From assembly GCA_012295275.1 (NCBI GenBank), contig CM022678.1, positions 12,400,001 through 12,464,000 of the forward strand: a stretch of DNA of 64,000 bases, given 5' to 3'. How positions within the stretch are numbered: the stretch's first letter is position 1; each line of letters opens with the position of its first letter. Both the position numbers and the translations under genes were made by a program. A model generated the notes under the pieces. It did not search any database. It saw nothing but the letters and a program-made list of their open reading frames with translations, and was not told where the DNA came from. The DNA comes from Chrysomallon squamiferum. Taxonomy: Eukaryota; Animalia; Mollusca. Of this stretch, positions 7,649 through 51,231 are shown piece by piece.

Positions 7649-8592
7649 TGCTGGTTGAGCGGTGATATTTACAGTTAAGTATGTTGAGAAATATTAATCT
7701 CATATTTTATTAATATCGTACAGGTTACATTTAAACATTTCACGACTGTTTGTACTGATTAGCTGAGAACAAACATGGTTAACATGTTATTTTATTATGC
7801 GAAATTTAATTTTTTCATTACATTCATCAGCGCAAGTTGTATAGTGTGATATACTTTATATTTTCGATTACACATTACATATTAATATAACCTCTCCACC
7901 AGGAAATATAAATATATCAGTTGAGCAGAATACATATTTGTCAGTCCTCTAATGGTCAACAGGTAATAATATGACCTTTATATCGTGCCTTCTCACTGGT
8001 TTATTGTGTGTTTTTTAAATATATTGTTTTAATTTAATTTATTTTTCTGTAAAAACGGAAGCTTCCTATATATGTTTGACGCCATTCTCTTAGTTTCATT
8101 AAAACTATTCTGAGAGCGGATATAAAAATTACTCCTTATTTTTCAGTCTACTGTGTTAATATTACAGCTTCACTTTTACTGCCAATATACTGAGTTCTAT
8201 ACCTAATAACATTACCGAAGAAATGCTAATTTTCAGTGATAACTGTACACAGAATTTTAAAAATTAAATTTTAATGACTTCATTATAATTTTAAAATTAA
8301 TATTTCGTATAAAGAACATACTGATATTTAGATGTGGAGCGGAGATTATAAAGCTTCTATCTTACGTTAACTTCTCAAAAGTATTCACCTATTAAAAATG
8401 ACGTTAATGCCGTTTATAATAAACATATTTCCTTTTTCTGAGGCCTAGAATTCTTTTTGATCAGAGGACGGGTAAAATTCATTAAAAAAAAAAAAAAAAA
8501 TTAAATAAATAAAATAAAAAACAACATTACAGGTGTTGCTTAACATCAAAAATACTGAGAGTTTTTCTTTTATTTGTTAATGGTCATATTAG

Positions 8593-9314
8593 AGTTTATA
8601 AAACGAGAACGTGATACTGAGGCCCCTGTCTTGAACTCACTGGAGGAACTGGTAAAGTGGCTTCAAGGCAGAAAGTGGGGAGATAGACCTGCTGAAGACC
8701 TTCGCTTGAATTCGTCATCGACGGAAGCCAGAATGCGGAACAGAGGATGGAACCGAAATATAGGATGGAAGCGGCCAATTGACATGCCCAGGCATATATA
8801 TATGTCTGTTTCTCTGTGTGTGTGTTTGTGTGTGTGTGTGTCTGTTTCTCTCTGTGTGTGTTTGTGGGTGGGTGTGGGTGTGTGTGAAAAATGAAAACAC
8901 TACTGTATGGTAACACATCTGTATTTTACAGGTAGGACATATCTAAACGAAACAAACTTGGTCTTGATGACAGACTGTGCATCTGCATGGACGTGAAGCA
9001 TTTGACGGGAGATCTCGAGCAGCTGTTGAAGAAATGGGTTGTTTTGTTGTTTTCTTTATTAAATTTATACTCTGTCCAGTTTTTCAAACTTAGAACAAGC
9101 AGGCCTGGACATGCAGGTTGCACATCTGTTTGAATATTTTACAAAAGGTGTTGATCTATAACAGACTTACAAACAAACATTAAATGTAATGTAATATCTT
9201 GTTTTTATGTTACATCATATCACGTGAGTTCGGTGTTTTTGTTAGTATTTACACTTCTTGAAAAACTGAGATATTTATTTATATTGATTTTCCTAATCTT
9301 TATCTATTTCTGGA

Positions 9315-9354
<40 letters not shown>

Positions 9355-10172
9355 TTTTTGTTTATTTATTTATTTATTTTTTTGTTAAAATATCAGATTT
9401 CTGAATAAAGACCAAACATTAATTATACAAGAAAGGGTTTGTCTTAATATTACTACTGAAAAAACATAGAAGGAAAATGTCCCAAAGTAAATAGATGAGT
9501 ATTTTAAAGACGTTATTTGATTCAGGTGGAAATCTTTATATTAATCATATGAGAATTATTTAATCATATTAAAATATATTTAATCATATTAAAATATTAT
9601 TAATCATATCAAAATATACTTAATTATATCAAATATACTTAATTATATTTGTCTTATTTGCTACCATGTAGCCACATACTAACCTTTTAATTAGCGGTTC
9701 TATTTTGTAAAATCTTCAGAACATCAAATATGTATTATAATTTTCTGCAAGTGTAAATACATACATTTAATTCTGTCTGTGTAAAAATGTAAAATTATCC
9801 TATTTCGAATTTTCTGAATATAAATGTGTGAATAAAATGCCTTTTGTAAACTGTGAATGTGAAAAAAGGACTCAATATTTATTACTGAAATGTACGCAGC
9901 AAACTAATAGAAACACATTCCATATATCAGTTCATGTCTTTTGTTTTATGAGACTACTGAATCACATACGGGTTAATACAATGAAAACAGCAAATATATA
10001 AATAATTAGTTACCAGGTGTGTTCAGGGGACACCGACCGTTCCTCAGTTCTGATCTAACAAAATAATCTCCGGGTTTTTATAAGAAAGAAAAAGAACTCG
10101 AGTTATTTGGCGACGTGTTACGAACCTTGCCGCTAGACGTCTGTCGTCAGATCATTCTGTGAAACAAGAACC
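8593..10172 (+). pseudogene. Three orphan coding-like exons of an unidentified gene
   Basis: Exon-like GC-richer segments after AG acceptors at 8593-8791 (FIKRERDTEAPVLNSLEELVKWLQGRKW), 8932-9037 (DISKRNKLGLDDRLCICMDVKHLTGDLEQLLKKW) and 10017-10172 (GVFRGHRPFLSSDLTK*..KELELFGDVLRTLPLDVCRQIIL*), with in-frame stops. Confidence 0.4.
9550..9648. repeat. ~20-bp minisatellite (TAATCATATTAAAATATATT)n, about 5 copies
   Basis: Tandem units read directly; an inverted counterpart lies at 53745-53830. Confidence 0.8.
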
Positions 10173-10229
10173 CGTAACACCACTCTCGAGCTGATCATTA
10201 AAGTATGAATAATAGTTAGTCAAAAAGGA

Positions 10230-10418
10230 AAAGAATAATGAGAACGTTACGACGGCAACGACGGCGGCATTAGCAGAGATAATAATAATATATTTTAGTA
10301 TAGATTAGACACGGAAAGAAAACAAAAATAATACGAATAAAAAACCAAAAGAAATAATGAAGTGTACTGGAATAACGTTAGGAACAACGCCGGTACAACG
10401 GCGACGGCGACATTAATA
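10230..10418 (+). repeat. Two units of a ~110-150 bp satellite-like repeat
   Basis: Core AACGTTAGGAACAACGCCGGTACAACGGCGACGGCGACATTAATA is shared with the array at 52170-52790. Confidence 0.8.
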
Positions 10419-10765
10419 TATACACACACACACAACACATATTTAAAGTTTATATGTGATGTGATTTCATATCATTAAATTTATTATTTTAAATTTTTTT
10501 GCTGTTTTATTGTGTCATAGCTTTTTAAACTTATATTTTTTTTCAGTTATTGTTATTATCAGTTTTACTTTTTCTTTATCTATATTGTTGTTGTTGTTGT
10601 TTGATGTTGTTGGCGGTGTTGTTAGGTACTCAAAAGTAATTTTCAGTTTAGGAAATAAAGGTTGACTACAGTTAACTATAACTAGATCTTTTTATCAAAC
10701 AAAGGTTTTAAAATTGTGAGTCAAATTGTTCGAAGTTATGGATTTTTTTACTATAAAATAAAAAT

Positions 10766-12600: not shown

Positions 12601-13411
12601 ATTTGAAATGAGTTGGTAAGGAAGTTATTGGAACTGTGGCCAAACCTGTGTGAGGAGTGTTTGAGTTGACGTCTGCTCTGGTGAATGCTGTCATAGATTC
12701 CAGTCACAGACAGAACACACCTTGAATCCATCCCCACAGATGTGCTAGGACCATACTGAAAACCAACATCATTTCAGCAGCTGCTGTTCTGTCAATAACA
12801 GTTACTATACAGAAAGGTAATATTCTTTCTCATATATTTTTATATATTAATGATACACAGCACATCTGAGAGAAAACCTGCTCATTTGTTAGCAGAACAT
12901 ACGACATCACACACAGATCTTTTAAACATAACAGTTCTTTAAATTTAATTTTTGGAATATATTTTATGTTTATTTATTTATGTTGTTTGTTGGTTGTTAT
13001 TGTGGGGGGGGGTTTGTTGGAGGATTTGTGTGAATTTTTGTTATTATTATTATTATGTTTTATTTTATTTTATTTCTGATTTCAGATTTTTACATTTAAT
13101 TAATTAATTAATTAATTAATTTTTTATTTATTTATTTATTTATGATATTTATGATATTACTTTGTTTTTGTGTTTATTGTTATTAATACCTATTTAAATT
13201 AAACTGAATTGATTTCAGAAAAAAACATCTAAAATGTTATATCTATTTTCATTTTTATTGCGTGAAGATCAGCTGTGTTGGGTCAGTGCAAGAGAAAATA
13301 AAAATCTCTACATGGATGCTCACAGGAAAATAGGTTTACCTTCTCTTACTGTTTGTTTATAACTCTGTAGCAGACAATATTGTACTTTGGTGTTTATATA
13401 CTTGCAAAACC
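12601..13411 (+). pseudogene. VPS13D: VPS13D-like C-terminal (ATG2_C/PH region) fragment, two decayed exons
   Basis: 12601-12816 reads LK*VGKEVIGTVAKPV*GVFELTSALVNAVIDSS..P*IHPHRCA, matching VPS13D GLGKGLVGTVTKPVAGALDFASETAQAVRD..RVRKPRCC. Acceptor appears mutated (CAT at 12598), donor at 12817. A second segment at about 13245-13411 reads LTGK*VYLL..DNIVL. Confidence 0.75.
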
Positions 13412-15119: not shown

Positions 15120-15320
15120 GCGCAATATATATTCAGGACTCGATAATCTCCGTGTATTCGGCCGGGATAATCCGAATGGTCACGATCAGTTTTACGATGC
15201 TGGGTCAGCGAGTCTCGCGGTTTTGTTTATCAAGACTACAGTTACTATATGCATATCCGGTCTATAAAATGAGTGTTTATAAACATAGAGCCTTAGACTT
15301 AGAGGTGTTCGAAAATTAAG
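15120..15320 (+). promoter_or_regulatory. Orphan CpG-rich promoter-like segment with TATA box and short first exon
   Basis: CpG cluster at 15120-15260, TATAAAA at 15263 and donor AAG|GTAAAG at 15320. No clear downstream CDS. Confidence 0.3.
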
Positions 15321-18481: not shown

Positions 18482-19229
18482 TTGTGACAGTGCTGCAGTG
18501 AACAGTTCGTGTGAACAGGGCTGCAGGGTGCATGACACAGTGGAGCAGTGTTTGTGTAGAAATGTTTACCTTGAATTCAGACAAAACATGCTCAGGTGAG
18601 TCAGTTCTATCTGGTTCTCAGGTTAAATTGTTCACTTCAAGCATTCTTAGTTTATTCATATTTTGAGTTTAAAGTGTTATCTCTTTCAATCTGAATGGCC
18701 AGCATTTCTAACATTATTATTATTTTTTTTTTTTCAGTTATTTTTTCGCTGAATGATGTTATGCTCTTTATATATTCAGGAATTCAGTTTGTAGCTTGGG
18801 ACTGCATTAGCAGCTTTTGTGCTATTCAAATAGTTACATTAAACGTTTCATTTCTGGAATTAAGAAAACATTTCAAAGCAGTTAATAGTGTTTAAGAAAC
18901 TTATCAGAATTTATGAATAATTTTAATTTTTATTAATAATAGTTATATCTGTATAACTTAAACTTGACTAATTTTATAAACTGCTCAAAACCTCTCAGAA
19001 TCTATGAATTTTAAATTTCAGTTAATCCATATATTTCTTATAAATAATTTGTGGGTAAATGATATTTGAGTAATTTCAGAAACTTGTCAAAAGTTTAATT
19101 GTTGTTAATGAGTGAGATATGATTTATCTGTTTCTCTCTTTCAGATACAAATGAATGTATTGAAAAATATTATCACAGGTACCTGTATGGATGTTTATAA
19201 ATGGGAAACTGACAAAATTATTTGTAGAG
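18482..19229 (+). pseudogene. Two decayed EGF/cbEGF exons (fibrillin- or mucin-like EGF-repeat gene fragment)
   Basis: 18482-18595 reads CDSAAVNSSCEQGCRVHDTVEQCLCRN/(frameshift)TLNSDKTCS. 19145-19229 reads DTNEC.../GTCMDVYKWETDKIICR (cbEGF start with internal deletion). Splice sites are canonical. Confidence 0.7.
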
Positions 19230-19334
19230 GTATATATAAATATTAATATCACACACATATCAACACATGCAGATGCAAAGATTCACACACATTAAAACAC
19301 ACAAACACAAACCTCCATATACATACATAAACAG

Positions 19335-21234: not shown

Positions 21235-21350
21235 TACTTATTTTTTGACATATAAAATCTAGGACTGAAAACATATGACATTTTCTCAGTCGTATCAAAA
21301 TAATTTTAGAATGTCCGATATAGAGGAGGGGAGATAATCGAAAATATATC

Positions 21351-22662
21351 AGGTAAAGGAAATAATCACCATAATTATGGGGTTAGGTTCAAACATCGAA
21401 AATCTAAAACAAAACGAGAATTTTATGGTAGCAGATATTCAAGGTTGTCTTTGTTATAAGATTAAAAACGGATATCTATGAAACTGTTTTCAGTAGATAC
21501 ATTTCTCTTCTATTTACTAGCTATAGATATCTTAATATTAAAAGTAATAATGTTTATATGTATATAACCTTAACATTGTGAAGTCTATATATAAAACAGT
21601 GACAATATAAAGCAACTATAAACGCTAGAAAAAACTAGTAATTATAATTATAATAGTAATGTTAGTAATTATAATAAGTAAATAAACTGCGGGTTTTAAA
21701 CTTTGAGAATTCAGATAATTACCTATGACGAGTTTTGGGTAACAAATTGTTTTTAGAATTTTTCATTCTAGGCTGGTTTCTCTTGCTCTTTGAGTTCGAT
21801 ATTTTCATTGACATCTTCAGTAATTTAATAACTTGTAATCTTTGCACAACCCGGCGAACCCTTTTATGAAATAGAGGTCACTGGACCTCGAAAGTTTGGC
21901 CTTGTTTGGATATGCGTTTGACATGGGTTAGGTTTAGATGTGTTCTCACTTGTTGAAATTTTTTGCAGGTGTAACCTTTGTTATTAAAGGCGTATATGTT
22001 TAACACACGAGCTCGTCAGGATTGTCACGCGGTGGTTCTAAGTCATGTGATCAGCTGATTGTTGTCGTTCAGCCAGGATAGAAAAATATTTCTTATCAAT
22101 ATCAGATGCGTACTGAGTTAAATTCTGGTTGCGTGCGCTTACTGTTGTGTACTGAGAGCCGGCGCCAGACTGTCTGGCGTCCAGGCAAGGTTAGATTCGG
22201 TCACCCCCAGGAACATATCCATTTCAAACTTTTAAAACATTTATTTTCAACATCCTATGCGATCTCTAGAGGTAAGATTTTTCTGTCACGGACATTTAAA
22301 TATCCCACACAGTGTGAATTAAATTTCCAAATTACACTTCTTCTTCGGGTATATTTGTCATAATGTATCATTTTTAACAAACTTATTTCTGATAACTTTT
22401 AATAAACATTACTAGAGATAATGTACTACTTTTAATAAACGTGACACTCAAAAGATTTGCACCTAAATTAACCTGACATTGTCAAACAATTAAGAACTGT
22501 TCTCTCGTTCAGGCATGGAAACAAAGAGTATATGTTCAGATTTGTCAACTAATGAAATATACTATAATATACTGAATTAATTAGTTTAAAAACCATATGT
22601 GTGTGTGTTAACAATACTAAACAAAAGTATCTAATACAGAGAGGGAAAATATTATTATTATG

Positions 22663-22742
<80 letters not shown>

Positions 22743-23107
22743 CTTTTAAATTAACAAAGAAAGTTATGTACTACTACTGCTACTACTACTACTACTACTA
22801 CTACTACTATTACTACTACTACTAATAATAATAAGGCCACTCTGTAAACTAATTAAACTTATTCTATAATCACATATTAAGCTATGCGTTATAAAGCATG
22901 GAATAAACAGACAGGGTAAACTCATTTTTGATCTGTATGAAAGGTTTGACCTATCCACTATTGCTGGGTTTCACTGATACAACACTTTAGATGGCCATGA
23001 TCACAACTAGTTGCTTTTTGGTGCAGTATTATTATTATTATTTTATATCAGCGAAAACCAGTGCTTCACGACCGGTATACCAAAGAACGTAGTTAAACAA
23101 ATACACA

Positions 23108-23158
<51 letters not shown>

Positions 23159-23161
23159 TTA

Positions 23162-23204
<43 letters not shown>

Positions 23205-24849: not shown

Positions 24850-24910
<61 letters not shown>

Positions 24911-32472: not shown

Positions 32473-32545
32473 CTTACTACAAAACTAATCTAAATCACAT
32501 TAATTGATACAATGATCATTAAAAGTTGTTTTCTCACATTAGCAG

Positions 32546-34071: not shown

Positions 34072-34127
<56 letters not shown>

Positions 34128-34336
34128 TTAATGCAACTAAAATTAAGCCTAACAAGACACAAATGTAACAATTTTGACTTTTCTAAAAATAAGACTAAAT
34201 CTTCCGTCAATCTGTTATCAACCTACACCTTCATTTCACAGTGATCATTTTCAAACTGTGAGAAGAGATTTTTAAAACAAGTGAACTGTCACTAAATGAG
34301 GAGGAAATGTGGATGTGTTTTAAATAAAACACTTAC

Positions 34337-34546
34337 AGGAATGACAGGAATCGGCCAGGATCTCAAGACATTTCAGCAAACTCTTCTGCAAGCTCTTTGA
34401 AAGATGGATGGCTTTCTATATCCAACCTGAAAATTTGTTTTATTAATCCCAAAATATCCTGAGTGATTTCAACCATGTAATACTGGACACACACACACAC
34501 ATGCCTTAGAGTATATATGTTTGTAATTAAATGAATTAAGATGCTC

Positions 34547-34609
<63 letters not shown>

Positions 34610-35990
34610 CCTGTGAGTGTGTATGTGTTTGCATGTGTTTTTTCTTACTTAATTAAATTATTACTTATTTACTTTATTTATTATCATTAATATTAGCATT
34701 ATCTTTATCATTATCATTATCGTCATTGTCATTTAATTATTATCATCGTCATTGTCATTTAATTATTATCATCTTCATCATCATTATCGTTATCATCATC
34801 ATTATCATCACTGTAATTATTATTATTATTATTAGTATTACGATGTGTTATAATTTGCTGTTTTCATATACATACATAGATCCAACATCTATACATATGT
34901 ATGGTTATACATAAGATTCAGATCAAAATTTTTGTTTCAGTGTCTTTGCCATGACAATGTTTATGACAAGGCTACTTACACTTGATCATGATGATGTAGA
35001 TGTAGATGGAGCAGATTGGAGGCTGTGGCAGTCACTCTCCACTCTCCAGGAAATGGAGAACTTCGTGGATGTTGTCATATTGTGTTTGACCAAACATAAA
35101 CAGTTCCCACACAGTAACTCCTGAACAACAAAAAAAAAAAAATTAGTTACATCCATCGGTTTCAAATTTGTTTACATTCTGTATCAGTGAAATATTTTCA
35201 CAAAGCAAGACTAGAAAAATTAAGATTCAATATATCGTTAATGAACGTGTAATATTAATTTTCGTACTTTATTATTATTAAAAAATATGAATTTCAATAT
35301 GACTCAGAGAAATGTGTTTAGACTGTTTGCTCTTCTAAGTACACTTTATTATATATATTTTTCATTTTACAAGCAGTGTTAAAATTGATGCATCTTACAT
35401 GAATATCATATTCAAATATCATTTCTGCATTAAAATTATTAAAAAAAGAAGAAAAAAGATAAAAAGGTTATTACCACAATTCCAGACATCAGTTTTGTGT
35501 GTGAATTTTCTGTCGAGAGCTAACCACTTGATTAGCATCTGAAACAGTGAAAAAGAATAAAATCTCGTTTTTCATATATTTTCCAGTTTATAGCATAATA
35601 TATCTCAAATTTAATTTTTTTGAAATTTTAGCATATCAATATTCCCAATTTATAAAAAAAAAAAAATGAATTAAGACTATTCCAAGTTTCAGTTTTTAAC
35701 TTCCCTATTAATAAGAAAATTGAATTTCAACTATTCAGAATTTCAGTTCTTCAGTGTTCCCTGTTAATAAAAAAACAGAATTTAAACCAATTTATCAGTG
35801 TTTTTGATTACTAAGAAATGTGAATTACTACTATTCCATTCACTTTTCCACCACCAGCTTAGTACTCTTCCTCACTGTAATCAAGAAGTTTAGCTAATCC
35901 AAAATCTGTGATCTTCACCTGATTCAGGGTTTGTACTGTACAAAGATAAAAAAAAAAATAAATAATAAAATTTTATTCACAATTTCAGTG

Positions 35991-36071
<81 letters not shown>

Positions 36072-37553
36072 CGTTATTACTTTTATTATTCCTATTATTA
36101 GTACTTTTATTACGTTTATTATTGTTCTATTATTACTGCATGAAATTGTTATAAGTACTATTATTTGAAATCTTGAAAATGTATTTACTTATTTATTATT
36201 TATTGTTTTGTAAAGCTGACTAACAAAGATTCTAATTAACCTTTAAAAGGAAAAAAAATATTTTTTTAAATAGAGGAAGAAAAAAAAAACTACTTTCTAT
36301 TGGATCTAGAAAACAAAACAAAAAATAAACAACTATAAACAAACAAAAAAAAACAAAGCAAACAGACAATCAACAAAATGTGAAATCAAAACTTTATTAA
36401 AATAATTAGTTGACAAAGAATGCTCACCAAGTTCATTTTTAGCAGCTAGATCTCTATGGACAATTCCCCTTTCCTCTAAATAAATCATTCCCTGAAAACA
36501 ACACAGTTTATATGTGTTGTGTATATGTGTGATTAAGCATGTGTTTGTATGTCTCTGTGTGTATCTGTGTGTTGTCTGTATATGTATCTGTGTTGTCTGT
36601 GTGTTGTGTGTGTCTGTGTGTATCTGGGTGTTCTGGGTGTGTCTGTGTGTATATGTCTATGTTGTGTGTTTATGTCTGTGTGTATCTGTCTGTTGTGTGT
36701 ATGTGTCTGTGTGCATCTGTCTGTATCTGTGTTTGTGTGCATTGTGTGTATATGGGTGTGTTGTGTGTATATGGGTGTGTTGTGTGTCTGTGTGTGTGTG
36801 TGATGTGTATCTGTGTGCTGTGTGTGTATATATGGGTGTGTATGGATATATATTTGACAGCACTCACACTGGCTATCTGAGTACATCAGTTGAGGAGGAC
36901 TTTAGATCCAATGTGGTCTTTGTTTTTTCTCACGAGAACACAGCCAAGTGACATCAGCTGAGTGATCAACATCATCTGTGCCGTCATGCACACTGCGAGG
37001 ATTTTGACACAACAGGGAGGCTTCACTGACACCATCACCCATGTCTCCTCCAACAGCTCCTTGATCTGGTTAGGATCATCCTGTAATTCTTTAATAGCTT
37101 CTTGACATTTTCTCATTCTGGTATCCAGTATCCCTGGTTAATAATAATAATAGTAATAACAACAACAACAATAATATAATAGTAATGATAATAATAATAA
37201 CAATAATAATGACAGTAATAATAGTAATAATAATAATAATAAAAGTGAAGGTAATACTAATAACAATAATAATAATAGTAATAGTACTAGTAGCAGTAGT
37301 AGCAACACTAATGATACCAAAGGTAATAATGTAAGTAGTAGTTGTGATAGTAGCTGAAGTTGTAGAAGTATTTTTAGTAGTAACATTATAATTAACATCC
37401 ATCAGCTTGTGGTTGGAGGTAGAAAAAGATATGTAATTTTATTCTCACCTTATATACCATTCCAAATGCTCTGGAGCCAACAATTCCTCCTTGTTTCAGT
37501 TATAATTCTTTTATCAGTTTAAGCTGGGTGGGGTCAGAAACAAACCCCTATAA
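34337..37553 (-). pseudogene. EGFR: Unprocessed EGFR/ErbB tyrosine-kinase-domain pseudogene (7 exons)
   Basis: Exons: 37449-~37553 (LKLIKEL*LKQGGIVGSRAFGMVYK), 36868-37133 (GYWIPE*ENVK/AIKELQ..QLMSLGC..IGSKVLLN*CTQIA), 36428-36491 (GMIYLEERGIVHRDLAAKNEL), 35844-35935 (VKITDFGLAKLLDYSEEEY*AGGGK), 35475-35538 (IKWLALD..FTHKTDVW), 34980-35120 (GVTVWELFMFG..GE*LPQPPICSI..IMIK) and 34337-34426 (HPSFKELAEEFAEMS*DPGRFL). Multiple stops, frameshifts and deletions. Confidence 0.95.
36510..36845. repeat. Degenerate (TG)n/TGTC/TGTA microsatellite in an EGFR-relic intron
   Basis: Read directly; it explains the several spurious V/C- and H/T-rich ORFs in the track. Confidence 0.9.
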
Positions 37554-39400
37554 CTGAGATTATTACAGTTTTCTTCTTTTCATCAGTGTGAAAATAGAAC
37601 AAAACATTCAGAAAATCTGAAACTATGTAAAATGAATATAATACAATAACTAATAATAATAATAATAATAATATAAATAATAATAATAATAATAACAGTA
37701 ACAATAAAAACAAAATAAAAATAATTCCTCATGTAAAAGCTGGTAACGTATTTTCCAAATCCCAGAGCTCCACAGCTGATTTATCAAAGCTGTTTATGAG
37801 AAGGTTCACATAAAATAGCCCTTCCTGCTGATCAGTAAAAACAGACCATGTGTCAGATGGTTTCTACTGTCTCTTATCAGCATCAGGCTTAATATTTAAT
37901 ATTCTCAGTAAACCACTCATTTCACTCACTGAGCAATTTGACATTCAACACTAAATTAACTTGTTAATTAACTAGCTATGTTTTCAGTTAATATTTTAAT
38001 TATGACTGCTTTTGAGTTAAATCCTATGTTAACAAATACCCATTTAGATTTATAATTATCTTAGTTGATAACTTAATGGGAATATAAATATCTTAGTTAA
38101 TTAGTTTTCTTGTTACTCAAGTTAATTAACTCAGTTAATAAGGTTAATCATGTTATTTAGTTAACTGACTAAGATAATAAATGAATTGTTTCAGTTGTAA
38201 AACTTAATTAACTCAGTTAATACGGTGACACAGGGCCCGCACCTTTAAACATCTTGGATGCTTTATTAAGGCTCAGCCTAAGGTAACAAGGTGCTTTAAT
38301 GGCCACCTAACAAGGAATATAAATGATAAATTGACAGAAATCTATGTAACTCAATAAGTCTGTCTATCCACTAGACAAATAAACAGAACACAAGTTAACA
38401 TTCATTCATTCACTCATTCATATAGTTTGTAAAAACAATGGTTATAAAAAATCTCAAAGTTCTCTAAAGATAAGCTTTCATCCCTGTCCATTTCACAAAA
38501 AGAACTGACATAATTTTATAAGCAGATGATATCAATACACATAATTACAAATGAAAGGATTTTTTTTTAATTTTTATTTTTTTTTATCTGTTACCATTAT
38601 TTTTTTTGTTTTTTTATTTTTAATTTTTTATTTTTTTTGTTATATGTGAGCCTTTCCATGAGCATCAACACAAAAACCAACTACTTTATTTAAACCTAGG
38701 TATCATAATTATGTATATACACTTTATGAACAGGGAAAGACAGTGAAAGACAGAAAGAAAGTGAAAGGGAGAATCAGAAAGACTAGGAGAAAATTACAGA
38801 TAGTGAGAGAGAAATAAAAAAGACAATGACATCATAACTAAACCTGACTTTTACCTGCAGTTCTGTACTTTTAACATCATCAACTTTTATGTTAATTCTT
38901 GACACTATGAATGGTTGTCCAAATATCTTAGCCTAGATAACAATAAACACATTTTTTTAATTATTCATAATAACCATTGTTAGTGTTAAAGAACTATGTT
39001 ACAGTTGGGAGAAATATTTACAGAACAAATTGTCAAAACAGATAGATATTTACAGATTATATGTTCAGACATATATATATATATATACATAGATAGATAT
39101 ATAGGTAGATATATAGATAGACAAACAGACTAAGTTACATAAAGTCACAGACTTACAGAGAGACAGAAGGTTAGAAAGATAGACAAATATAAGATAAAAG
39201 AATACAGAGGTACATAGATATATTTATTTAGGAGGTAAAAGTATTTAGAGACTGGTAGATATTGGGTAGATAGGTAGGTTGATAATGTAGACCAACAACA
39301 GACAAACAGACAAAGTAGACCAACAACAGACAGACAGACAAAAGATAGGTTATTGTAGACACTGGTAAACAGATATTTAGTTAATAGGACTAGGCAGACA

Positions 39401-39437
<37 letters not shown>

Positions 39438-40764
39438 CAGAAAGAGCAAGAGAAGCTGACAGATTGGGAGTAGTAGGTAAACCAAATGACATTTATATAT
39501 AATTAATCAAACACTGGTGATTTAAATGGAATACCTCTACTCTGTTGTAATAATCTATAGCCTTGTCTACAGATACACAATCAGACATCAGTGTCCATGC
39601 TATTCCACTGTTTGAATGAGTAACTGGATCCTGGCAAATTGAAACAGTAGCAGTAGTATTAGCAGGAGTGGTAGTAGTAGTAGTAGTAGAGGTAGTAGTA
39701 GTAGTAGTAGTAGTAATAATAGTTTTAGTAATAGCAGTATTAGCAGGAGAGGAGTAGGAGTAGCAGTTGTAACAGAAATAGAAACAATAGTAGTATTTGT
39801 AATAGTTGTAGTTGTAGTAGTATTAGTAATAATAAGAAAAATACATTATAATAAGACTAATAACGATAATAATAATAATAATACAAAAATGTTAAAATAA
39901 TAATCATAATAAGAAATTACATTATATTAACAATAAAAAAGTACAGTGTATGATAATAATACAAAATAAGGTACTAACAATAAAATTCACAATTAAATAA
40001 CAGGATTCTAAAAGAAGAAAAGAATATATATAAATAATAGCTTGCCATTTTAAGGTATTAACAATTAACAATCAAGAATTATAAAGAAACCCAAAAACAA
40101 AAACAAGAACAAGAACAGAGAGAGAGAGAGAGAGAGAGATGAACATAGAGAAGCTTCAAGTGGGAGAGACAAACAAATATAAATATTCATAAATAAGCAG
40201 AATGTGATGTTTATTATTAGATATATAGAAAGATAGATAGATAGCCGTGAACTGTAATTACCACTCACCATAACCTTTCACCATGGTTGCAATGTCAAGG
40301 ACATCACCTAGTGACAGTGTCAGAAGTTGACTGTTCCTTTATCTGTGAGAATAGCTGGACAGTGCATCATATTACCCAGCATTCCTAGAGCAAAATAAAT
40401 AAATAAATAAATGAGATGACAAATTTCAATAAATATTAATGTCAAAAATAAAAACTAACTATAACTGTTTACTGGGATATCCTCCAAGTGCTGTTCCTTT
40501 AATCAGGAAGCTGTCTGCAACTGAAGGGAGACAACTACAAGATGATTCTACTGTTCCTACTGCACCTCTGTTAAAACTACATAGTTGCTATTATTATTAA
40601 TACTACTGCTACTATTACTAAACTAGTTATTATTACTACTGCTGCTACTACTACTATTACTAAACTAGTTATTACTACTGCTGCTACTACTATCTACTAC
40701 AACTACAGCTATACTGACTCCTTTTCTACATTAGCTTTTATTATCACTATCCTACTATGTTAGC

Positions 40765-40821
<57 letters not shown>

Positions 40822-40829
40822 TATTAGGG

Positions 40830-41520
40830 ACTGAACTAAAAGCACAATCTAAAGATACATCAACACCATTATTGTGTCTGAGGTTTTTTCTCGTTGTTTA
40901 CATGTAAAGTGCTTGGGAAATTCCTCCAAGACACATGGGACATTAATATATGGTAAACACTGTCACTGGTGCTTTCTTAAGGAATCCAGGACAGTAATGG
41001 TCTGCCAGTATTGGTCAGGGTGTAAAATGTTATCTGTTTGTCTGAGGTGATAGAGAGTTCAAGAGAGAAGAAAGAATATCAAGCAAGGGAGAAAGATGTT
41101 TGAGACAATTCTCTGCATTGTGATTACTATACTTTTATAAGATTGTACTGTTACTGTATGTCATGAAGTATAATAGCAGAGGAAATAAAGATGTTACTGA
41201 AATGGAACTTGTGTAGTTTTTGTGTGAGGGTGTTGTATTCACAAATGGCATTGCCGACAGGATTGTCAGTTGTTTAAGTTTAGACAATTGTCAAATTTAA
41301 CAATAGACAGTTGGTAAATCTGAAATGAGAACAATCAAGACACAATTAAAGTGTGAGGCAGCTGCACTTTCCAGAAATATGCAGATGAAGACGAAGTGAA
41401 GATGATTGATGGAAAATGAAAGAAAGGGATAATTATCACAGAAAATACATTAATGAACTTAATTGTGACAGAGCCATTACTAATGCAGTAATACTGAGAA
41501 GTATGATGTTTCCTGAATTC
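40830..41520 (-). mobile_element. Possible highly decayed L2/CR1-type LINE fragment
   Basis: GC-richer intronic island whose minus-strand 3' end runs into an (AAT)n tract at 40765-40825. Only faint endonuclease-like translation. Confidence 0.25.
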
Positions 41521-41579
41521 TGAGTTGCAAAGGAACAGAAAAACAAAGAACATTAACACAACAACTGTGGAGAGGGGGG

Positions 41580-41635
<56 letters not shown>

Positions 41636-42128
41636 TATTATGGAATAAACTGCCTGGTGGATAATCAGGATAATTAACAGACTGATTCTGTGATTGTGTT
41701 GCTATTTTGATGTTTTGTTTCTCTTTGTGGTTAAATGTAAATTGCTATTATTGGCAACAAACAGTTCAACACTTGTGGAGAGAGAAGTATTATGACATAA
41801 ACTGCATGATGGATAACATTGACATCATTGTGTTGCTATTTTATTTTACTTCACTTTGTGTTTAAATTGTTGGCCACAAACAATGAAAGGTAGGTGATTG
41901 TGAAATGTTTGAATGTGAACAAATGACAGGTGAGGTATTCATATTACTTAAAGTTTTAGTATTAATTAACTGAACAATACTGGCATTCCCTCAATCAAAC
42001 TGTTTTAACACTGTTTTAACACTATAATATGTAAACTAAAACTGATATTTGTAACTGGAGATTAATGGGAAAATTGTAAAAGTTATGATCTGAGGAATTT
42101 CCCTACAAACTATAATCACATAAAGAGG

Positions 42129-44745
42129 TGTAGCCTGCAACTGTTTTGGGACAGTTGGTGTCTAGAGTTGACTTTCACATGACCAGTTGTTTACAGGTGT
42201 GGACCCAGTGATGTCCAGTGATGGTCAGTAGCCTGGGCTTAGATAACATGTGAGGTAAACAGCCCTGAGTGGCAGCAATTAAGGGCATCTAAATTTAGGA
42301 AGTAAAGTTAAAATAAAGATTCTTGGAGAGATCAGTTATAATCTGATATTAAAAGTTAAAACTTGAAATACTGAATTAAAACAAAGTTAGTAGAATAAAT
42401 GATTTTGTCATTTCATTTAGTGTGTAATAATGAATTCAGAGTAAAGTAAATTTGTAATCACAAAGCACCATAAATTAAAATACTAATTTAAACACAAGTT
42501 TAAATTGACATAAAATATAATACTGGCTGCTGGCATGAGCATGGTATAACTCACTTTTTGTAAGATATCACTGAATTCCCAGCTGACTTTAATTTATAAA
42601 GCTTTGCAAAATGGCAAAAGCAATAAAGCTAAAAGATCATGTTGCAGGCTGCTTTACAGGAAGAAAGGGATGTGACTCAACGATTTAGTGAGGAATTGCT
42701 GAGTCCTAAACAAGGTGAAAGCAGCACCAAAGAGTAATAAATCTCACACCTATGACTCAGTTATTTTATATCGGAAATGAGATAAAGGTGAGTAAATTTA
42801 ATGAGTCAGACAATGGCCTCAGATTTAGAGATTTTCGGGATCAGGTTGAAAGGACATTTCTACATCAGAGCCTTGCAGAAAAGGTGCAGGCTAGTTTTAT
42901 ATTAGCTCACTTAGAAGGTGAAGCGAAAGAAGAAATTAGGTTGAGGTCACAACAAGAGCAAGAGAATCCAGAAGTGGTCTGGGATCAACAGTGCATGAAC
43001 TTCAAAAGTTATTTTTGATCAATCACAGAAGGAAGGCAAATCACTGAGAGAATTCTCTTACGTCTCTCTGAATTATTAGATAGAATGTACAGGAAAAACA
43101 CTGAAAATGTGAGGGACTCAAGTTTGCATTAGTTACAACAGCCCTGACCATTTCACTAGGGATTGCACTAGAAACAGGCAGAGAGTTTCCCAGCGGGTGG
43201 ATAAGTAGAAGAGGAGGAAGTCAGTACCTAGGGGTTCAACAAGAGGACGAGGTTTGGTTGGAGACCAGCAAGAGCAGACAGGAAACTTCGACCCTCTACT
43301 GTTGTGAGTCAGACAGTAGAGGAAAAAGGTTCTGACTTATCTGAGTCTGTTTCCAATCAAGAGTTTGTCAGAACCGTTTCTGACTGTCCTATAGTTCAAG
43401 TGTCTATGGTAGGGGTCCATGTTGATTGGTTGTTAGATACTGGGTCAATAGTAACAACCATAACTGAGGATTTCTTCCACAATAATTCTGTTCCACTTAC
43501 TATTCAGCTCCTTACAAGTCAAGGATGACTCTAACTTAAGGATGCCAATGGATTGGATATTCTCTACTGTGGATATATTGAACTGGACATTGAAGCTCTA
43601 GGCAAATTAGTTCCTGTCAGAGGAATCTTGATGCTGAACAGGCCTAAATCAGACAGGACACCAAGGTTTTGAAAAGAGCATGAGTCTTATTAGAAGATGT
43701 AATGCACAAAGATGTGGAGCAATGGTGTAAAGAGTGTGAAAGGTGTGTGATGGCTAAACTGCCACAACTCAAACTGAAACTACCTTTGAGACCTACTGAA
43801 ATTGTAGCCATGGATTTGACAGTGTTGGAGCCATCTTGAAGTGGCAAAGAAAATGTCTTAGTCATGACTGATGTTTTTACCAAGTTCACTGTGAAAGACC
43901 AGAAGGCAGAAACCACAGCAAAGATACTCGGAGTGGTTTCAGCGACATGGAGTACCAGAACGGTTACACTCTGACCAAGTAGAAACTTTAAATTGAAGGT
44001 AATAAGTAGTTTATGTACTCTTTATGGAGTGAAAAAGAGCAGAACCACTCCATATCACCCTGAAGTAAACGGACAGTGTGAGAGATTATGCAGGACACTG
44101 CATGATCTGCTCTGCACAATTTCCAATGAATGTAAGAAGAAATGGCCTTAGTACATACCTCAGCTTATTTATTACTACAATGCTGCAACTCATTCTACAA
44201 CTGGCTTTTCACCATTTTATCCGAAGTTTGGAAACATCCAGGGCAGGAAAAGCATTCAAGATCACTGGAGAAGTCAAGTGTACAGAGTCACTGAAATGCT
44301 GGATCAAGATGGAAGGTTACACAAAGTTTGTCCTCTGGAAGATGACAAAGACATCAGGGTGGTGAACAGGTCAGAGATGAAACAGAGCCATGTTACACAC
44401 AACCAGAAAGATGATTTGAACAACAGTCAGACAATGCAAGAAATGACAAATCTAACATGATCATCTAGCAAGGATGATGATCAAATCAAGTTTTGTTAAT
44501 GATGTAGCACCACCTTCCCATGCACAAAACCTACCAGGGATCACGATAAGATGGTCTCAGCATGCAACAAAAGGAAAAAATCAAAAAAATATAACCTGCC
44601 AGCAATCAGTAATGAGCAGGTCACAGATGAAAAAGTTTGTCCATCTAATTTATCAAATGAAGATGTTTTGATCAGACTTAGTGCTACATTAATGCAAAAG
44701 GCAATTAAAGAGGTAAGTAGTGCTTTCAATCACAGAGATATCTAA
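42129..44745 (+). mobile_element. Degenerate Ty3/Gypsy LTR retrotransposon (gag, protease, integrase; RT-RNaseH deleted)
   Basis: PNMA-like gag (FILAHLEGEAKEEIR), protease LLDTGS near 43430 plus ANGLDILYCGYIELD, and integrase CKECERC, IVAMDLTVLE, LVMTDVFTKF, GVPERLHSDQ, SRTTPYHPEVNGQCER, YNAATHSTTGFSPF, with stops and frameshifts. LTR boundaries are uncertain and no 3' LTR was seen. Confidence 0.9.
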
Positions 44746-47700
44746 TAACCGTGAGATTCCAAACAAGATAAGCAACTAGATTAAGACAGTAACAAGTCCA
44801 GCTAGTCTGTCATCTGTCTTCAAACCGCTGATTGCTATGGGCCTGGCAATGTCTGACATGAAATGTGCTACTGTCACCACCACATTACATGTTGCTGCTG
44901 ATGTTTTTGGTATTAATTACATCTCTGTCACAATAACAGAACTGAAAACTCTTTACTAATATAAAATACAAGGTGCTATTCAGAAGTGTTATTTTCCCTC
45001 TTCTGTGTGTGTGTGTAGTAATAAAAATAAAATATAATAAACCTGAAAAATATAAAAATAATTTATTACCTACCAAGTTTCACCAATATTCAAGCTCTTT
45101 AACTCAGAGTTGTGTCCCTTCATGGTATAAACAAAGGCTAAGGGCACTGTCAGTTTCAATCTTAAATTTAAATAAAACAGTCCTGAGTATTTTGTACCAA
45201 GCATTTAAACATATAATAGTTATTTACTCACACACACACACACACACACTATTATCAGATAGCAATTATCACTATTGCTTATAGCTATCTATCTATATAA
45301 AAACAATTTGAGAAAAAGACAGAGAAAAAACCAAAAATAAACACAGAATAATAAAAAACATATTTCTGGTGATAATATTGTCAGATTTCTCTCAAGAATT
45401 AAAATAACATTTATAAAAGTATTCTTTATATAATTATAATAATTGCTGGAAATATAGAAATATAAAAATATAGCTAGACCAACAAAACAAACAAGAATAA
45501 ATAAAGAACAACAAAAAAAAAAGAAGAGAAAATAGCATTAATTGTAATGCTAAATAAAGAAAACATACAGCATCATCAAGAACACTAAGTGGGTGTTTCT
45601 TTTGTTTCAACATCGACTCTCAAACTGTGCTATTAACACATCCGTAATCCAACTGGATGAAAGCTTGAGCAGGTGCGCACAATTTCTGATTGCTTGACAG
45701 CAGGGTCCAGGTCTGCATCAGCCAATGAGCAACCTTAAAGCTGTCACATGACTGTTTGGTACAGTTTCTAAAATTAGACAGAGTATCAGAGTCAGTTTAA
45801 CCAAGAAACTTCATTTATAAACTGAATTTATATTTTAAGGAAGTTACTGGTTATACACGTATGTGTGTGTGTTAATTTATTTATATTCATAATACTGAAA
45901 TAATCAAATTTCATAATTACTTAAAAACATTTCCAAAATGAAAATTTTAACAGTTACTTTTAATGAATCAAATGGCTACTACTGACCACAAATGGCTTTC
46001 ACTGCATCTGTACCAGCCATTCTCAACCCATCAAAGTTAATGGTTGCTAGCTGAGTCAGTGACACCATCAAAGGTAATTGTCCAAGAGTACTAGAGTTTA
46101 GTTCTGCTTTTCTTAAATTGACATATTTCAGGTTTGTAAATTTCTCTGTGGCCAGTTTCTTTGGTAGTCAATCAGCTTACATCAGCCTTTCAACAGAACT
46201 TTGATTTGATTTATCGTGATTAAAAAAAAAAAGGAAAAAAAAAAAAAAGATTTCTTATATATATTTGCCTGTAAACACAGATTAGCACAAACATACTCAC
46301 ACATAAAAAAAACAGAGAACATAGCAAATAAAGAAACACAGAAAGAAACACACCCGCTAACCCTAAATACCAACAACAGCTGCCATATACACTGACAGAC
46401 TTCAGACACACACACACACACAGATTGACAAAGAAAATACAGATTGAAGAGAGAATGTTAAGTAGAATGAGGGTGATAAAGATGGATAAAGAAAGAAATC
46501 AGAAAATAAAAACAAAGAGATATTTACAGCTGAATATGCAGAAGATAAGATATGGACTGAAAGAGAGAGACAGTGAAAAGAGTCAGAGATGGAAACAGAG
46601 AGAGAGAGAGAGAGGGAGGGAGGGAGGGAGGGATTATTTAAAAAAATTTAAATTCAAAAAATGTGTTTACTTTAAGTTTAACTAAATCGTCAATGACAGA
46701 TACACAAAGATCAGGATTATTTCCATTGTCCACATCTTTCAAGGAAAGGAATTTTCAGTGGAAACGTTCTTCCAGAAACTCCAACAGCTGGTTGGTTAAA
46801 CAATTGCAGTTCAGACTTAATTCTTGTACAGAACTTGTGTCCGATTTGGATTCTGGAATACCTGAAATAAATGAAAAACAGTATTAAGAAACTTGGCAAC
46901 TATATCTTAACTATCAGCAGAAAAAGAAAAAAGTTCAGAAAATATGATAAATCAATAAATAAATAAATAAGAAAGTTAATAAATTGAAAATATAAATATA
47001 TAAAATGAAAAATGTAGTTAGTAGAAGACATCAGAATGTTTTAACAGTAGTAATAGTAACAGCAGTAGTAGTAGTTGTAGTTGTTAGCAATAGAACTAGT
47101 AGTAACAATGGTACTGTTGGTTATAGTAGTTGACACAGCAGTAGTTGTAGTAGTTTCAATATTAGTAAAAGTATTAGACCTGGTAGCAATAGTAGTAGTT
47201 GTTGTTGTAGTAGTAGTAGTAGAAACAGCAGCAGCAGAATTCGTAGCTGTGGTATTAGTGGTAACAACATAGAAGTAGTAATAATGGTAATAGTTGTAGT
47301 ATTAGTAGTAACAGTACTATTAATAGTAATAGTGATAATAGTTGTATTATTAATACTAACAGTAGTAGTAATAGCACTAGTGGTAATAGTTGTAGTTTTA
47401 GTAGTACCAGTACTAGTAGTAGTAATTGCAGCAGTAATAGTGATAGTGATAACTGTGGTAGAATTAGCTTAGGTTGAATAGTAGTAGTAAATACAATAAG
47501 AGGAGTCAGTTAAAAACTGCAGACACAACAATAGTAGTAGTAGTAGTAGTAGTTATAGTAGAAAAAAATAATAGCATTAACATGTGTAGAAATAGCAGTA
47601 ACAGATATAGTGATAAATCTAGATTGCTAATAGATTTAGTATGTTGAAAGTCACTGTTAGTAACTATTTTTTCAGTAGTAGAATAACAGTGGTAGCAATA

Positions 47701-48841
47701 TTAGTAGCTACTGATAATACTGGACAATTAATAATAACAATAACAATGACAATGACAATAATAATATTAATAATAACAATAACAATAATGACAATAATAA
47801 GAAGAAGAAGAAGAAGAAGAAAAAACATATATATAAATATAAAAATAATTTCTTGTTATTGGGTTTTATTATTATTATTATTATTATTACTACTACCACT
47901 ACTATTATTATTATAAAACATTTTATAACAGTTATAATTAAGATTACTCTCTCAGTGTCTGTTTTGTTGGTGGTGAGGCTAACTAAAATCACTGTTGTGT
48001 TAGAACACATTGCCAGACATTCCAAAACTGTTTCCTGATAAATTTAAAACCTAATTTAAAAATAAATAACTAAACAAAAATAAACGTGTTAATAATTAAT
48101 GAAAACATAGAATACTAAATTATTTCGTAGGTTGTAATATTAAATAAAAAAATAAAAAGATAAATAATAATGAATGTAAATATCCAATATTATGTAATTC
48201 AGTATGATTATATTTTAAATAAATCAAAAATAATAAGAAATTTAATAACTAAATAAATAAATGACACACAGATATATACAGACATTAGATACACAGACAG
48301 AAGATAGAAAGATTCATAAATAAATACAAATAAATAAAATAAAAATAATCAACTGTCTACTAAAACTTATTTATTGATCATTTTTATAAATTAAAACTAT
48401 TAATAAATTTAGAATTATTCAAAAAACTGATTCTTAAGCTATTTATGTTCGGAATTATCAAAAGAGAACTTAAGGAAAGATTATTTAAAATATTTTGTTT
48501 CTTTGTTATACTTCAAAAATAAAAACATAAAGAAAAGAAAGAAAGAAACTTGCTAATTATGAATAAATAAGAAACGATGTAAAGACACAGACTGACATAC
48601 AGAAGGACAAACAGAAAAGTATATAGTAAATAGAGATGTAGCTATATAGACAGATTCTCAGAAAGACAGACATATTTATCTGAACATTTTCAAGGAAAGA
48701 AATACACACAGACAAACAGAAAAGCAGAGAGAGACAGAAATAAAATAAATAAATAGGGAGGCAGACAGAAGGAGAAGCTGACAGATAGACTAAGACATAT
48801 TTACAGACATATTTACCTGAATATTTTTTAAAGATTTTAAA

Positions 48842-48883
48842 ATCTGACTAAGTGGATCTGACTAAGTGGATCTGACTAAGTGG
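48842..48883. repeat. Perfect 14-bp tandem triplication ATCTGACTAAGTGG within an exon
   Basis: Three exact copies. Collapsing them to one restores the frame ALPLSQILKSLKNIQ up to the donor. Confidence 0.9.
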
Positions 48884-49800
48884 TAAAGCTTGTGTCAGTT
48901 TAAGTCTTGGTCTGGCTGCTTTCAACAAAAACTCCAGTTTCACAAGAAGATTAGTCATTCAAGTCAGATAATCAAACTTTTTCTGTGGCTGTGGATCCAT
49001 ATCTTCCTTGCTTGGCACAAGAGTGAGTTTTCAGTGGTTGGTGTGGTGGTGTCAGTTTGTCTTCAGTCTAATGCTGGTGCTGGTTCTGTTGGTGCTGACT
49101 GCTGTTTAATTTAAAATGATGTGAAACCCATGCCAGTTCTGTGGAAATAACAAAAGAGGAAAAAATATATATTAACAGAGGGCAGACCTTGAATACAAGA
49201 GAAAACTTGGTTGCAAATATAAACACAACTGTCAAAAAATATTTTTTTTCCAAATGATTGGTAACTATTTAAAATACACTAATAGTAAGTAACAAACAAG
49301 TTATAAGAATAATACTGGTTCTAAAAAAATCACTAAAATTTTCAGAAAACAAAATATATTGATAAGATAATGACAATACAAGTTTACAACAACATTAATG
49401 TTCCAGTTTGTTTGGCAAATGCTAAAACTATGACATCATCAATGAAAATAGGTTTTGAATTAGGAAGACAGAACATCTACAAAAAGGCATACTGAAATAT
49501 TAATTCTCTGAGATATTACTAGATAACTTGTTTTATTAAAACACTGAATACTGTTGAGATTATTGTAGGAATATTATTATGTTCAGTTTTGTATCTGTTA
49601 AGTGCTGTAACTAAGTGTAAAAACAAATGTGAGCAAAACAAAATTAAAAAGTGCTCACAACTGAAGTGATGTCATGAAAAATAAGTAAATAAAAATAATG
49701 CTAACATAAAAGAATAAGCAGAAACTAGGAAATGAAGAAGAAAAGTAACAAGAATAGTCAGTACCTTCAAAAAAAAAAGAAGAAGTAATAATAAAAAAAA

Positions 49801-49831
<31 letters not shown>

Positions 49832-50539
49832 ATAGTAAAAATAATAAAAATTAAAATTAAGAATTTAAAATATGAAGAAACAAAAAGAAAGAAGAATAAG
49901 AACTATGAACAGAAACTGGGAGACTGAAAAATAATAAGTAAATTGTATATTACAAAAATCTAGCTCATTAAAATAACTGAAAATAAATACAGACAAGAGG
50001 TACAAACAAGACGAAAAAGATTATGAAGAAATTACAATGCAGATAAAAACAAGAAACAATAATCATGATAATTAGGTTAAAAAAAAAAAAAAAATGAAAA
50101 GTAATAAAAACAATATGAAGAAATATGAATAAACACAGGATTAAGAAGAACCAATAAGAATAAAAGACAAGACAGAAGAATCACACACACACACACAGAT
50201 ATTTAAAATAAATTAAATAAATAATGAAAAAATAGAAAAATAGGTGTCATAAAATAAATTATTACTGAAATAGTAACAAGATTATTAGCAGTAGTAGTAG
50301 TAATTTAAATAACAATAATACTAATCATAACACTCATCATGACAATAATAATAATAATAATAATGCTGACAATGATAATAATAATAATGATTATAAATTT
50401 ACAGCAATTTCTACTCAATAATAGATATTACTGTATACGAGGCATTAATTAAACACCATATTTCCGTAATTACTTTTAACAGAATTGACTGCATTATGAA
50501 GGAGTATTTTTTTTAAAGTGTGTAAACAATGATCGGCGT

Positions 50540-50590
50540 TCGACGCTGCCATCTTGGATTTCGATCGGAAGTTTCCGTGTCATCACGAAA
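50540..50590 (-). promoter_or_regulatory. Housekeeping-type promoter and start site of the LRR-RRM gene
   Basis: YY1-like CAAGATGGC overlaps the ATG at 50552, an ETS motif CGGAAGT lies at 50566-50572, and there is a local CpG cluster. Confidence 0.55.
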
Positions 50591-51231
50591 GTTTTTAAAC
50601 TTCCAAATTCAATTATTTTACTTGTTTTCTGAACATTTTATGATTTACACTGATAAGGATGGTTGTTCATGTTATTAAACCGTGATCTTCATTAAACTTT
50701 TCCAAGTGGCTAAAATTCAGTTAACGTCATAGTGAGTAGATAAAATATATAAACTTAGATCCTATACCCGCATTTTACTTTCCACCCAAAGACAATTATT
50801 TTTGGATTTTCTTATTATTTTTCAAGTTACACATTTGTTTAGCAGAATTATCTTGGCGGGATTGTCATTTTTATTATTTAGAGTTACTTCCCCTGGACTG
50901 TCAGTCAAAACTTTTCACTATTTCGACGACAGCTTATTTTGCACACTATCTGACAAGCCAAATGATTAAACGTTCAGGTCTTTTATTTGTTAAATTTTAT
51001 TTGTTGAAATTAATGTGCAATAAAGGCGTGTATGGACACTATAATGTATATTTTAAAAAAAATACGTGAATTTGTTCTTACATTTTTATTTCATCATTCG
51101 CCATTTTCAGGAACTAATTGTATTTCAGGGCTAGCATATCTTAGAAATACGGTAATCAGTATGAGTCTTAGTAAAACGTTATGTACAGGATTTCAAGTTA
51201 TGAACATGTAGACTGTAAAATTAAGACGATA

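What the first reader, a model, noticed from the sequence alone, without database searches (positions are those of the whole stretch)
8500..50600. Mosaic of intron-containing fragments from many unrelated genes: a gene-capture or duplication hub
Seen: partial, splice-site-retaining, decayed pieces of VPS13D (2 C-terminal exons), an EGF-repeat gene (2 exons), EGFR (kinase exons only), an LRR-RRM gene, a possible FReD exon and at least three unidentified exon groups, in mixed orientations within ~42 kb, with one intact gene. Known: genomic (non-retro) capture of gene fragments is the signature of Helitrons, Pack-type DNA transposons and segmental-duplication hubs. Inference: this is cargo of an undescribed large gene-capturing element or a duplicon sink.
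Basis: partly seen in the sequence, partly recalled or inferred. Interest (0 to 1): 0.8.

Follow-up and report, generated by a model that had tools for sequence, protein, structure and literature searches.

The report
Amplified EGFR fragment in snail patchwork
This stretch of a snail genome is a patchwork of decayed, intron-containing gene pieces, and its piece of the growth-factor receptor gene EGFR belongs to a repeated family, likely tens of copies, probably spread by repeated DNA-level duplication rather than by a recognisable jumping gene.

Summary
The mosaic is partly confirmed. Shown: an 8-exon EGFR piece (kinase and start of the tail, with stops and frameshifts); a decayed LRR-RRM gene of about 11 candidate exons with a Gypsy remnant inside; an EGF-type exon; and an intact 568-aa TRIM gene. 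VPS13D was not confirmed by any tool, and the FReD exon is not supported. New: public DNA contigs laid on 30,700-36,740 show that the EGFR piece, introns and 3' flank included, is a repeated family. 1,274 and 1,847 contigs lay on it, mostly 90-99% alike, with single contigs at about 6-30 times the depth of the unique-looking ones. RNA contigs show an intact, spliced EGFR elsewhere. Orientation is ordered: the left pieces read +, the right pieces read -, each half beside an inverted copy of the same roughly 2-kb module. Scans for Helitron ends and for TIR plus target-site duplication were at chance level. Best reading: a duplicon-type mosaic family (0.5); rival: a giant Helitron-like carrier with eroded ends (0.3). 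Copy number was tested for only 6 of the 42 kb; no host assembly or long reads were available.

The parts
7383..9982 (+). Left copy of a shared module ('arm'); carries about 1.3 kb that the right copy lacks
   Evidence: 70-85% to 53113-54838, inverted
8590..9040 (+). Two exon-like open frames inside the left arm, absent from the right arm; death-domain-like by eye only
   Evidence: no Pfam or PDB hit
10188..10418 (+). Minisatellite shared with 52050-52830
12615..12818 (+). Decayed exon with a GT donor; VPS13-like from recall only, unconfirmed
   Evidence: no hit
15137..15250 (+).
18482..19230 (+). Two decayed EGF-type exons (18482-18595; about 19144-19230)
21335..25231 (+). Direct duplicate (21335-22151 versus 24144-25231) upstream of TRIM
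   Evidence: 73-85%
27504..29494 (+). Intact TRIM-like gene (RING, coiled coil by eye, NHL; no B-box hit), coding exons 27504-27789 and 28074-29494, 568 aa
30700..36740 (.). Stretch shown to belong to a multi-copy family (EGFR exons, introns and 1.8 kb of 3' flank); its true ends lie outside or at these limits
32538..37546 (-). EGFR piece, 8 exons (about 37449-37546, 36868-37133, 36428-36493, 35844-35935, 35473-35541, 34980-35120, 34337-34426, 32538-32701); at least 5 stops and 2 frameshifts
38856..50560 (-). Decayed LRR-RRM gene, about 11 candidate exons from a promoter-like start near 50560; borders approximate
42600..44760 (+). Decayed Gypsy-type retrotransposon remnant (protease and integrase hits below Pfam cut-off) inside the LRR-RRM gene; no LTR pair found
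52050..52830 (+). Minisatellite shared with 10188-10418
53113..54838 (-). Right copy of the shared module
120..2696 (-). Exons of an unidentified gene (gene A) reading outward; paralogue of 56878-60100
   Evidence: 81-93% in shared parts
56878..60100 (+). Paralogue of gene A reading outward

Best explanation
The window is a patchwork of intron-containing gene pieces whose EGFR segment belongs to a repeated family, likely tens of copies, and it was likely built by duplicon-type DNA copying (repair-driven copying of distant segments next to a shared core module, followed by repeated segmental duplication) rather than by a transposon with defined ends. Steps: (1) shown: an EGFR segment was copied as DNA with its introns while an intact, spliced EGFR persists; (2) shown for 30.7-36.7 kb: the segment exists in many variants 90-99% alike, with subfamilies identical over 140-240 nt; (3) shown: two inverted copies of a gene A + module unit flank different cargo, and the cargo reads inward from each; (4) inferred: the module acts as a core next to which donor segments accumulate, and the two halves are two members of one duplicon family joined tail to tail; (5) inferred: this copy is an old, dead member, since it carries letters, stops and frameshifts that other copies or the parent lack.
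For:: 1274 of 5,189,651 (X1) and 1847 of 7,127,126 (X2) contigs lay on 6,041 bases, identity classes 186/401/457/230 and 177/556/800/314. 27 of 30 bins reach depth 300 in X1 and 500 in X2. Single contigs of 139-243 nt over exons and introns have depth 376-795, against 23-58 (X1) and 36-76 (X2) for long or near-identical contigs, a ratio of about 6-30. RNA contigs join three exon pairs and carry sense codons where the window has a substitution or a stop (tables 5 and 7). Inverted module and gene A paralogy. The copied blocks are 5-12 kb with whole introns, like the flanking donor segments of primate core duplicons (PMC7419210, passages) and far above the 224-bp median of animal Pack-TIR captures (PMC8277862, passages). 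No element ends above chance.
Against: Depth of Logan contigs is not a copy number (the tool says so), overlapping contigs are summed, and no known single-copy control was laid, so 'tens' is a rough figure. Only 6 of 42 kb were laid; nothing shows that the LRR-RRM, EGF or module parts are repeated, or that junctions recur. Tens to perhaps 100 copies with young subfamilies fit a transposon at least as well. The module's homology stops at a CTAG at both outer ends. The TIR scan missed the one small element with a target-site duplication that I found by eye, so it is insensitive to old elements. At 20 of the 40 listed variant sites (of 432) no contig of X1 or X2 carries the window's letter, and no contig spans the stretch, so this exact copy is not independently confirmed.
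Confidence: 0.5

Rival explanations
1. The cargo belongs to a giant non-autonomous Helitron-like (rolling-circle) family. The shared module is its terminal part, two elements lie back to back, and each captured different gene pieces step by step.
For: High copy number with subfamilies. Cargo reads one way relative to each module. Homology of the two modules ends just past a CTAG at both outer ends, and a minisatellite sits beside both. One module holds exon-like filler that the other lacks. Maize Helitrons reach 20.9 kb and carry up to 12 gene fragments (PMC3288121, passages); bat Helitrons amplified host fragments to 12,382 copies (PMC4224331, passages).
Against: No GC-rich hairpin before either CTAG, which is followed by A rather than T. 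0 canonical 3' ends against 0-3 in shuffles; hairpins at chance level. No RepHel hit in the stretches scanned. Paralogy continues outside the modules into gene A (81-93%), so the duplicated unit is larger than the supposed element.
Confidence: 0.3
2. The repeated EGFR segment marks a real expanded gene family (receptor-less EGFR-type kinases, possibly fused to the LRR-RRM gene), of which this copy is a dead member.
For: At several exon sites all laid DNA contigs carry the same letter as the RNA contigs, not the window's (table 3). The EGFR piece lies directly behind the LRR-RRM gene on the same strand. The spliced RNA contigs could come from family members.
Against: Sharing the parent's letters only shows that the window has private changes. 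The last identified RRM exon ends in phase 0 and the first EGFR exon starts in phase 1 (read), so direct splicing is out of frame. A single RNA contig explains each joint. The protein search returned no full-length chimeric protein among 41 hits.
Confidence: 0.1
3. The arrangement is an assembly artefact: real repeat-family pieces joined wrongly, or with consensus errors.
For: No contig spans the stretch; the best run holds only 0.36 of the sampled words; 20 of 40 listed sites lack the window's letter in both DNA runs.
Against: Exons are in correct order with introns over 5-12 kb. Contigs with 1-6 differences over 180-410 nt match this copy in X1, X8 and X9 (table 8). The tool says contigs drop rare variants. 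The window has no N.
Confidence: 0.06
4. One old segmental duplication of a block in which the parent genes lie in this order.
For: Parent positions could not be tested: no assembly is held.
Against: The EGFR segment is multi-copy and lacks about 880 N-terminal and 240 C-terminal residues although neighbouring DNA continues on both sides.
Confidence: 0.04

Closest known systems
Primate core duplicons and mosaic segmental-duplication blocks (LCR16a/NPIP; PMC7419210, passages read)
   Same: A shared core with different flanking donor segments that hold genes or parts of genes with introns, joined into large mosaics; inverted copies; many copies.
   Different: Here the host is a snail with 29% GC, the module copies are only 70-85% alike, no transcribed core gene is shown, and the EGFR segment may have more copies. 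Genome-wide structure is untested.
Gene-capturing Helitrons of maize and bats (PMC3288121, PMC4224331, PMC11417382; passages read)
   Same: Several gene pieces, introns kept, amplified to many copies, no target-site duplication.
   Different: No 5' TC or hairpin-CTRR 3' end, no short TIR or T|T site shown, no RepHel; 42 kb exceeds the 20.9-kb maximum in the maize set; the bat captures shown in the passages are a few hundred bases.
Pack-TIRs of animals and Pack-MULEs (PMC8277862, passages read)
   Same: DNA-level duplication of gene pieces, sometimes multicopy.
   Different: Median capture 224 bp against 5-12 kb here; no TIR and TSD pair found.

Membership tests
Helitron (HLE1) | 3' hairpin followed by CTRR, inserted between A and T | tested here: not met
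   0 hits against 0-3 in 10 shuffles; 5 hairpins against 1-8 in 20 shuffles, the only one with CTRR lying in the Gypsy remnant. An old copy could have lost it.
Helitron (HLE1) | 5' TC terminus shared by copies | not testable with these tools
   Needs aligned genomic copies; no assembly.
Helitron (HLE1/HLE2) | RepHel transposase in the element or an autonomous partner | tested here: inconclusive
   No Pfam hit in the GC-rich stretches scanned; not every base was scanned, and a partner elsewhere cannot be sought.
Helentron / HLE2 | Short asymmetric TIRs, 3' stem-loop, T|T insertion | tested here: inconclusive
   No stem-loop excess; asymmetric TIRs were not scanned separately.
Pack-TIR / Pack-MULE | TIRs flanked by a target-site duplication around the cargo | tested here: not met
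   32 pairs against 17-31 in 5 shuffles, 3 of them inside the inverted module. TSDs under 5 bp were not scanned and the scan is insensitive to decayed TIRs.
Mosaic segmental duplication / core duplicon | Intron-containing pieces of genes with an intact parent elsewhere | tested here: met
   EGFR; spliced intact RNA contigs. Parents of the other pieces untested.
Mosaic segmental duplication / core duplicon | Segment over 1 kb present in several copies at 90% identity or more | tested here: met
   6 kb covered by contigs, 1044 of 1274 and 1533 of 1847 at 90% or more; shown as overlapping short contigs, not as whole copies.
Mosaic segmental duplication / core duplicon | A core shared by many blocks with different flanks | tested here: inconclusive
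   Two copies of one module with different cargo in this window; genome-wide count not possible.
Mosaic segmental duplication / core duplicon | Donor loci unlinked from each other | not testable with these tools
   No assembly.
Processed (retro) pseudogene | Loss of introns | tested here: not met
   All 7 EGFR introns are kept.

The most novel reading that the evidence does not exclude
This snail carries an undescribed family of giant mobile units, 20-40 kb long, built on one terminal module, which pick up multi-exon gene blocks and have spread an EGFR kinase cassette without its ectodomain to tens or more than a hundred copies, some of which may still encode and express a receptor-less EGFR-type kinase.
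Probability: 0.2. Interest if true: 0.8.

Novelty: new variant of a known kind. Interest (0 to 1): 0.5.

Why it matters
Mosaic duplicon families are described mainly in primates, and animal transposon captures are mostly a few hundred bases. A snail family that amplifies a 5-6 kb, eight-exon EGFR kinase segment would extend large-block gene shuffling to molluscs and gives a directly testable case for telling repair-driven duplication from rolling-circle capture. In practice such copies inflate kinase counts and confuse variant calls at EGFR in this genome. My paper searches (search listings of an open-licence library only) found no report of such a family in a snail; subscription papers and supplements were not seen.

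Tried and rejected
No host assembly is held, so parents, junction copies and synteny could not be searched. Pfam was run on chosen GC-rich stretches (99 translations), not on every base. VPS13D: no hit in Pfam, PDB, the protein search (limited to 2000 aa) or a motif search of papers; left unconfirmed, not refuted. FReD: rejected; the PTS match at E 0.38 is too weak to adopt. A full-length named parent for the LRR-RRM gene was not found (318 candidates, none passed); 4 of the 5 hits were generic LRR or pentapeptide matches. Metagenome loci L001-L024 are EGFR genes of other animals and match the window only in exons. No viral contig encodes either exon. Rfam: 0 hits. No look-alike windows in earlier findings. 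RNA-library contigs also cover introns, but their depth follows DNA depth (Spearman 0.72 and 0.61), so transcription of the copies is not claimed. Three bins with little or no depth (34538-34941, 36558-36740) are repeat-rich and are not read as absence. Copy number of the LRR-RRM part and the left half could not be measured.
Full report
Setting. The window is AT-rich animal DNA (29% GC) full of microsatellites. The best named relative of its EGFR exon is from abalone, and earlier AI notes on this genome call it a snail (unchecked). No assembly is held, so all tests rest on the window, protein libraries and one laying of public contigs.

What is there. EGFR is certain. Eight exons on the minus strand, 37,546 to 32,538, cover Haliotis residues 904-1227 of 1468 in order. 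A profile of 19 EGFR proteins (chosen from the 41 hits) finds nothing significant outside positions 879-1192 of 1442 in any frame. The breaks at about residues 918, 1012, 1033, 1065, 1090 and 1139 recur in EGFR loci of other animals (for example L002, L004, L006, L020, L022). At least five stops and two frameshifts are visible. Upstream on the same strand lie about 11 candidate exons of an LRR-RRM gene, starting at a promoter-like site near 50,560 (borders approximate). One exon matches an unnamed protein at E 4.5e-11 and ends at the same residue; the Atlas calls that homologue's region LRR/FBXL-like and another exon RRM. A Gypsy-type remnant interrupts the gene (hits below Pfam cut-offs). On the plus strand lie an intact 568-aa RING-NHL TRIM gene and an EGF-type exon with the best splice-site score of 42 candidates and the EGF cysteine spacing, though without a library hit. 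The VPS13D call rests on a recalled resemblance that no tool confirmed. The FReD call is not supported. The count of 'many unrelated genes' is therefore three decayed genes with evidence, one intact gene, and several unassigned exon-like islands.

The EGFR piece is repeated. I laid 4 of the 11 runs (two DNA-type, two RNA) on 30,700-36,740 at 80% likeness. 1,274 and 1,847 contigs lay on these 6 kb in the DNA-type runs, most of them 90-99% alike. Depth is high over exons, introns and 1.8 kb beyond the last exon (27 of 30 bins at 300 or more in X1 and at 500 or more in X2). Single contigs of 139-243 nt have depth 376-795, while a long contig that is about 84% alike and ends at an exon start (likely the parent) has 23 and 36, and other low-depth contigs have up to 58 and 76. 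The ratio is about 6-30 for single contigs and 16-48 for the median listed site. The tool warns that contig depth is no copy number, and I laid no single-copy control, so I claim only 'likely tens'. Contigs shared by many copies over 140-240 nt imply young subfamilies, from which this copy differs by 3-13%. RNA contigs join three exon pairs (36,434-35,936; 34,978-34,426; 34,345-32,573), and their loose ends carry sense codons where the window has a substitution or a stop, so an intact EGFR is expressed from elsewhere. Against over-reading: at 20 of the 40 listed variant sites (392 more not shown) neither DNA run carries the window's letter, and no contig spans the stretch. This copy is old, polymorphic or imperfectly assembled; contigs also drop rare variants.

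Architecture. Self-comparison shows a module at 7,383-9,982 repeated in inverted form at 53,113-54,838 (70-85%), a minisatellite beside each, and outside them paralogues of one unidentified gene reading outward (81-93%). All pieces with an assignable frame read inward from the nearer module: plus on the left, minus on the right. The left module holds about 1.3 kb with two exon-like frames that the right one lacks. The window thus looks like two members of one unit, joined tail to tail, with different cargo. That reading is inference from two copies.

Mechanism. Retroposition is excluded by the introns. For a transposon carrier I found no hallmark above chance: Helitron 3' ends 0 against 0-3, hairpins 5 against 1-8, TIR plus TSD 32 against 17-31. 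These scans are weak on old elements: one search missed a small element with an 8-bp duplication that I found by eye. The modules' homology does end just past a CTAG on both sides, without a hairpin, which keeps a Helitron-like family alive at 0.3. Block size, whole introns and paralogy that runs past the modules favour a duplicon-type family at 0.5. An expanded kinase gene family (0.1), mis-assembly (0.06) and one syntenic duplication (0.04) follow.

Comparison. It works like primate core-duplicon mosaics (PMC7419210, passages) and resembles gene-capturing Helitrons in outcome (PMC3288121, PMC4224331, PMC11417382, passages). It fails the tested end criteria of HLE1 and Pack-TIR, and its blocks are far larger than Pack-TIR captures (PMC8277862, passages). 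Searches (listings only) showed no such family in a snail; supplements were not read. Similar mosaics in camelids appear in earlier AI notes (unchecked).

Verdict. A real but over-counted mosaic with one strong new fact, the amplified EGFR segment. New variant of a known kind; interest 0.5. The carrier question is open and can be settled with the assembly.

Noticed in passing
window 4320-4603: Small element of about 270 bp with imperfect terminal inverted repeats and an exact 8-bp flanking duplication; hAT-type MITE by recalled convention.
   Followed up: partly
window 63378-63939 (-): Broken nSTAND3 NTPase gene (two Pfam hits at E 0.003, below cut-off); with TRIM and death-domain-like pieces this suggests an immune-gene-rich neighbourhood.
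   Followed up: partly
window 60290-61100 (-): piggyBac-type transposase remnant (DDE_Tnp_1_7, E 0.0066), followed by a LINE-like 3' end recognised by eye only.
   Followed up: partly
window 120-2696 and 56878-60100: The two gene A paralogues share exon-intron units in a different order (127-574 versus 57999-58428; 868-948 versus 59169-59249), hinting at a gene built from repeated exon modules.
   Followed up: no
window 27504-29494: The intact TRIM has no B-box hit and contains a translated 72-bp tandem repeat (28595-28735) before the NHL region.
   Followed up: no
window 7556-7646: 28-bp tandem repeat that carries a splice-donor-like motif on each strand, inside the left module.
   Followed up: no
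window 11805-12049 (-), 14090-14215, 19830-20050, 23330-23530: GC-rich exon-like islands that remain unidentified.
   Followed up: partly
window 51590-52120: 43-bp minisatellite of about 7 copies next to the right-hand minisatellite.
   Followed up: no
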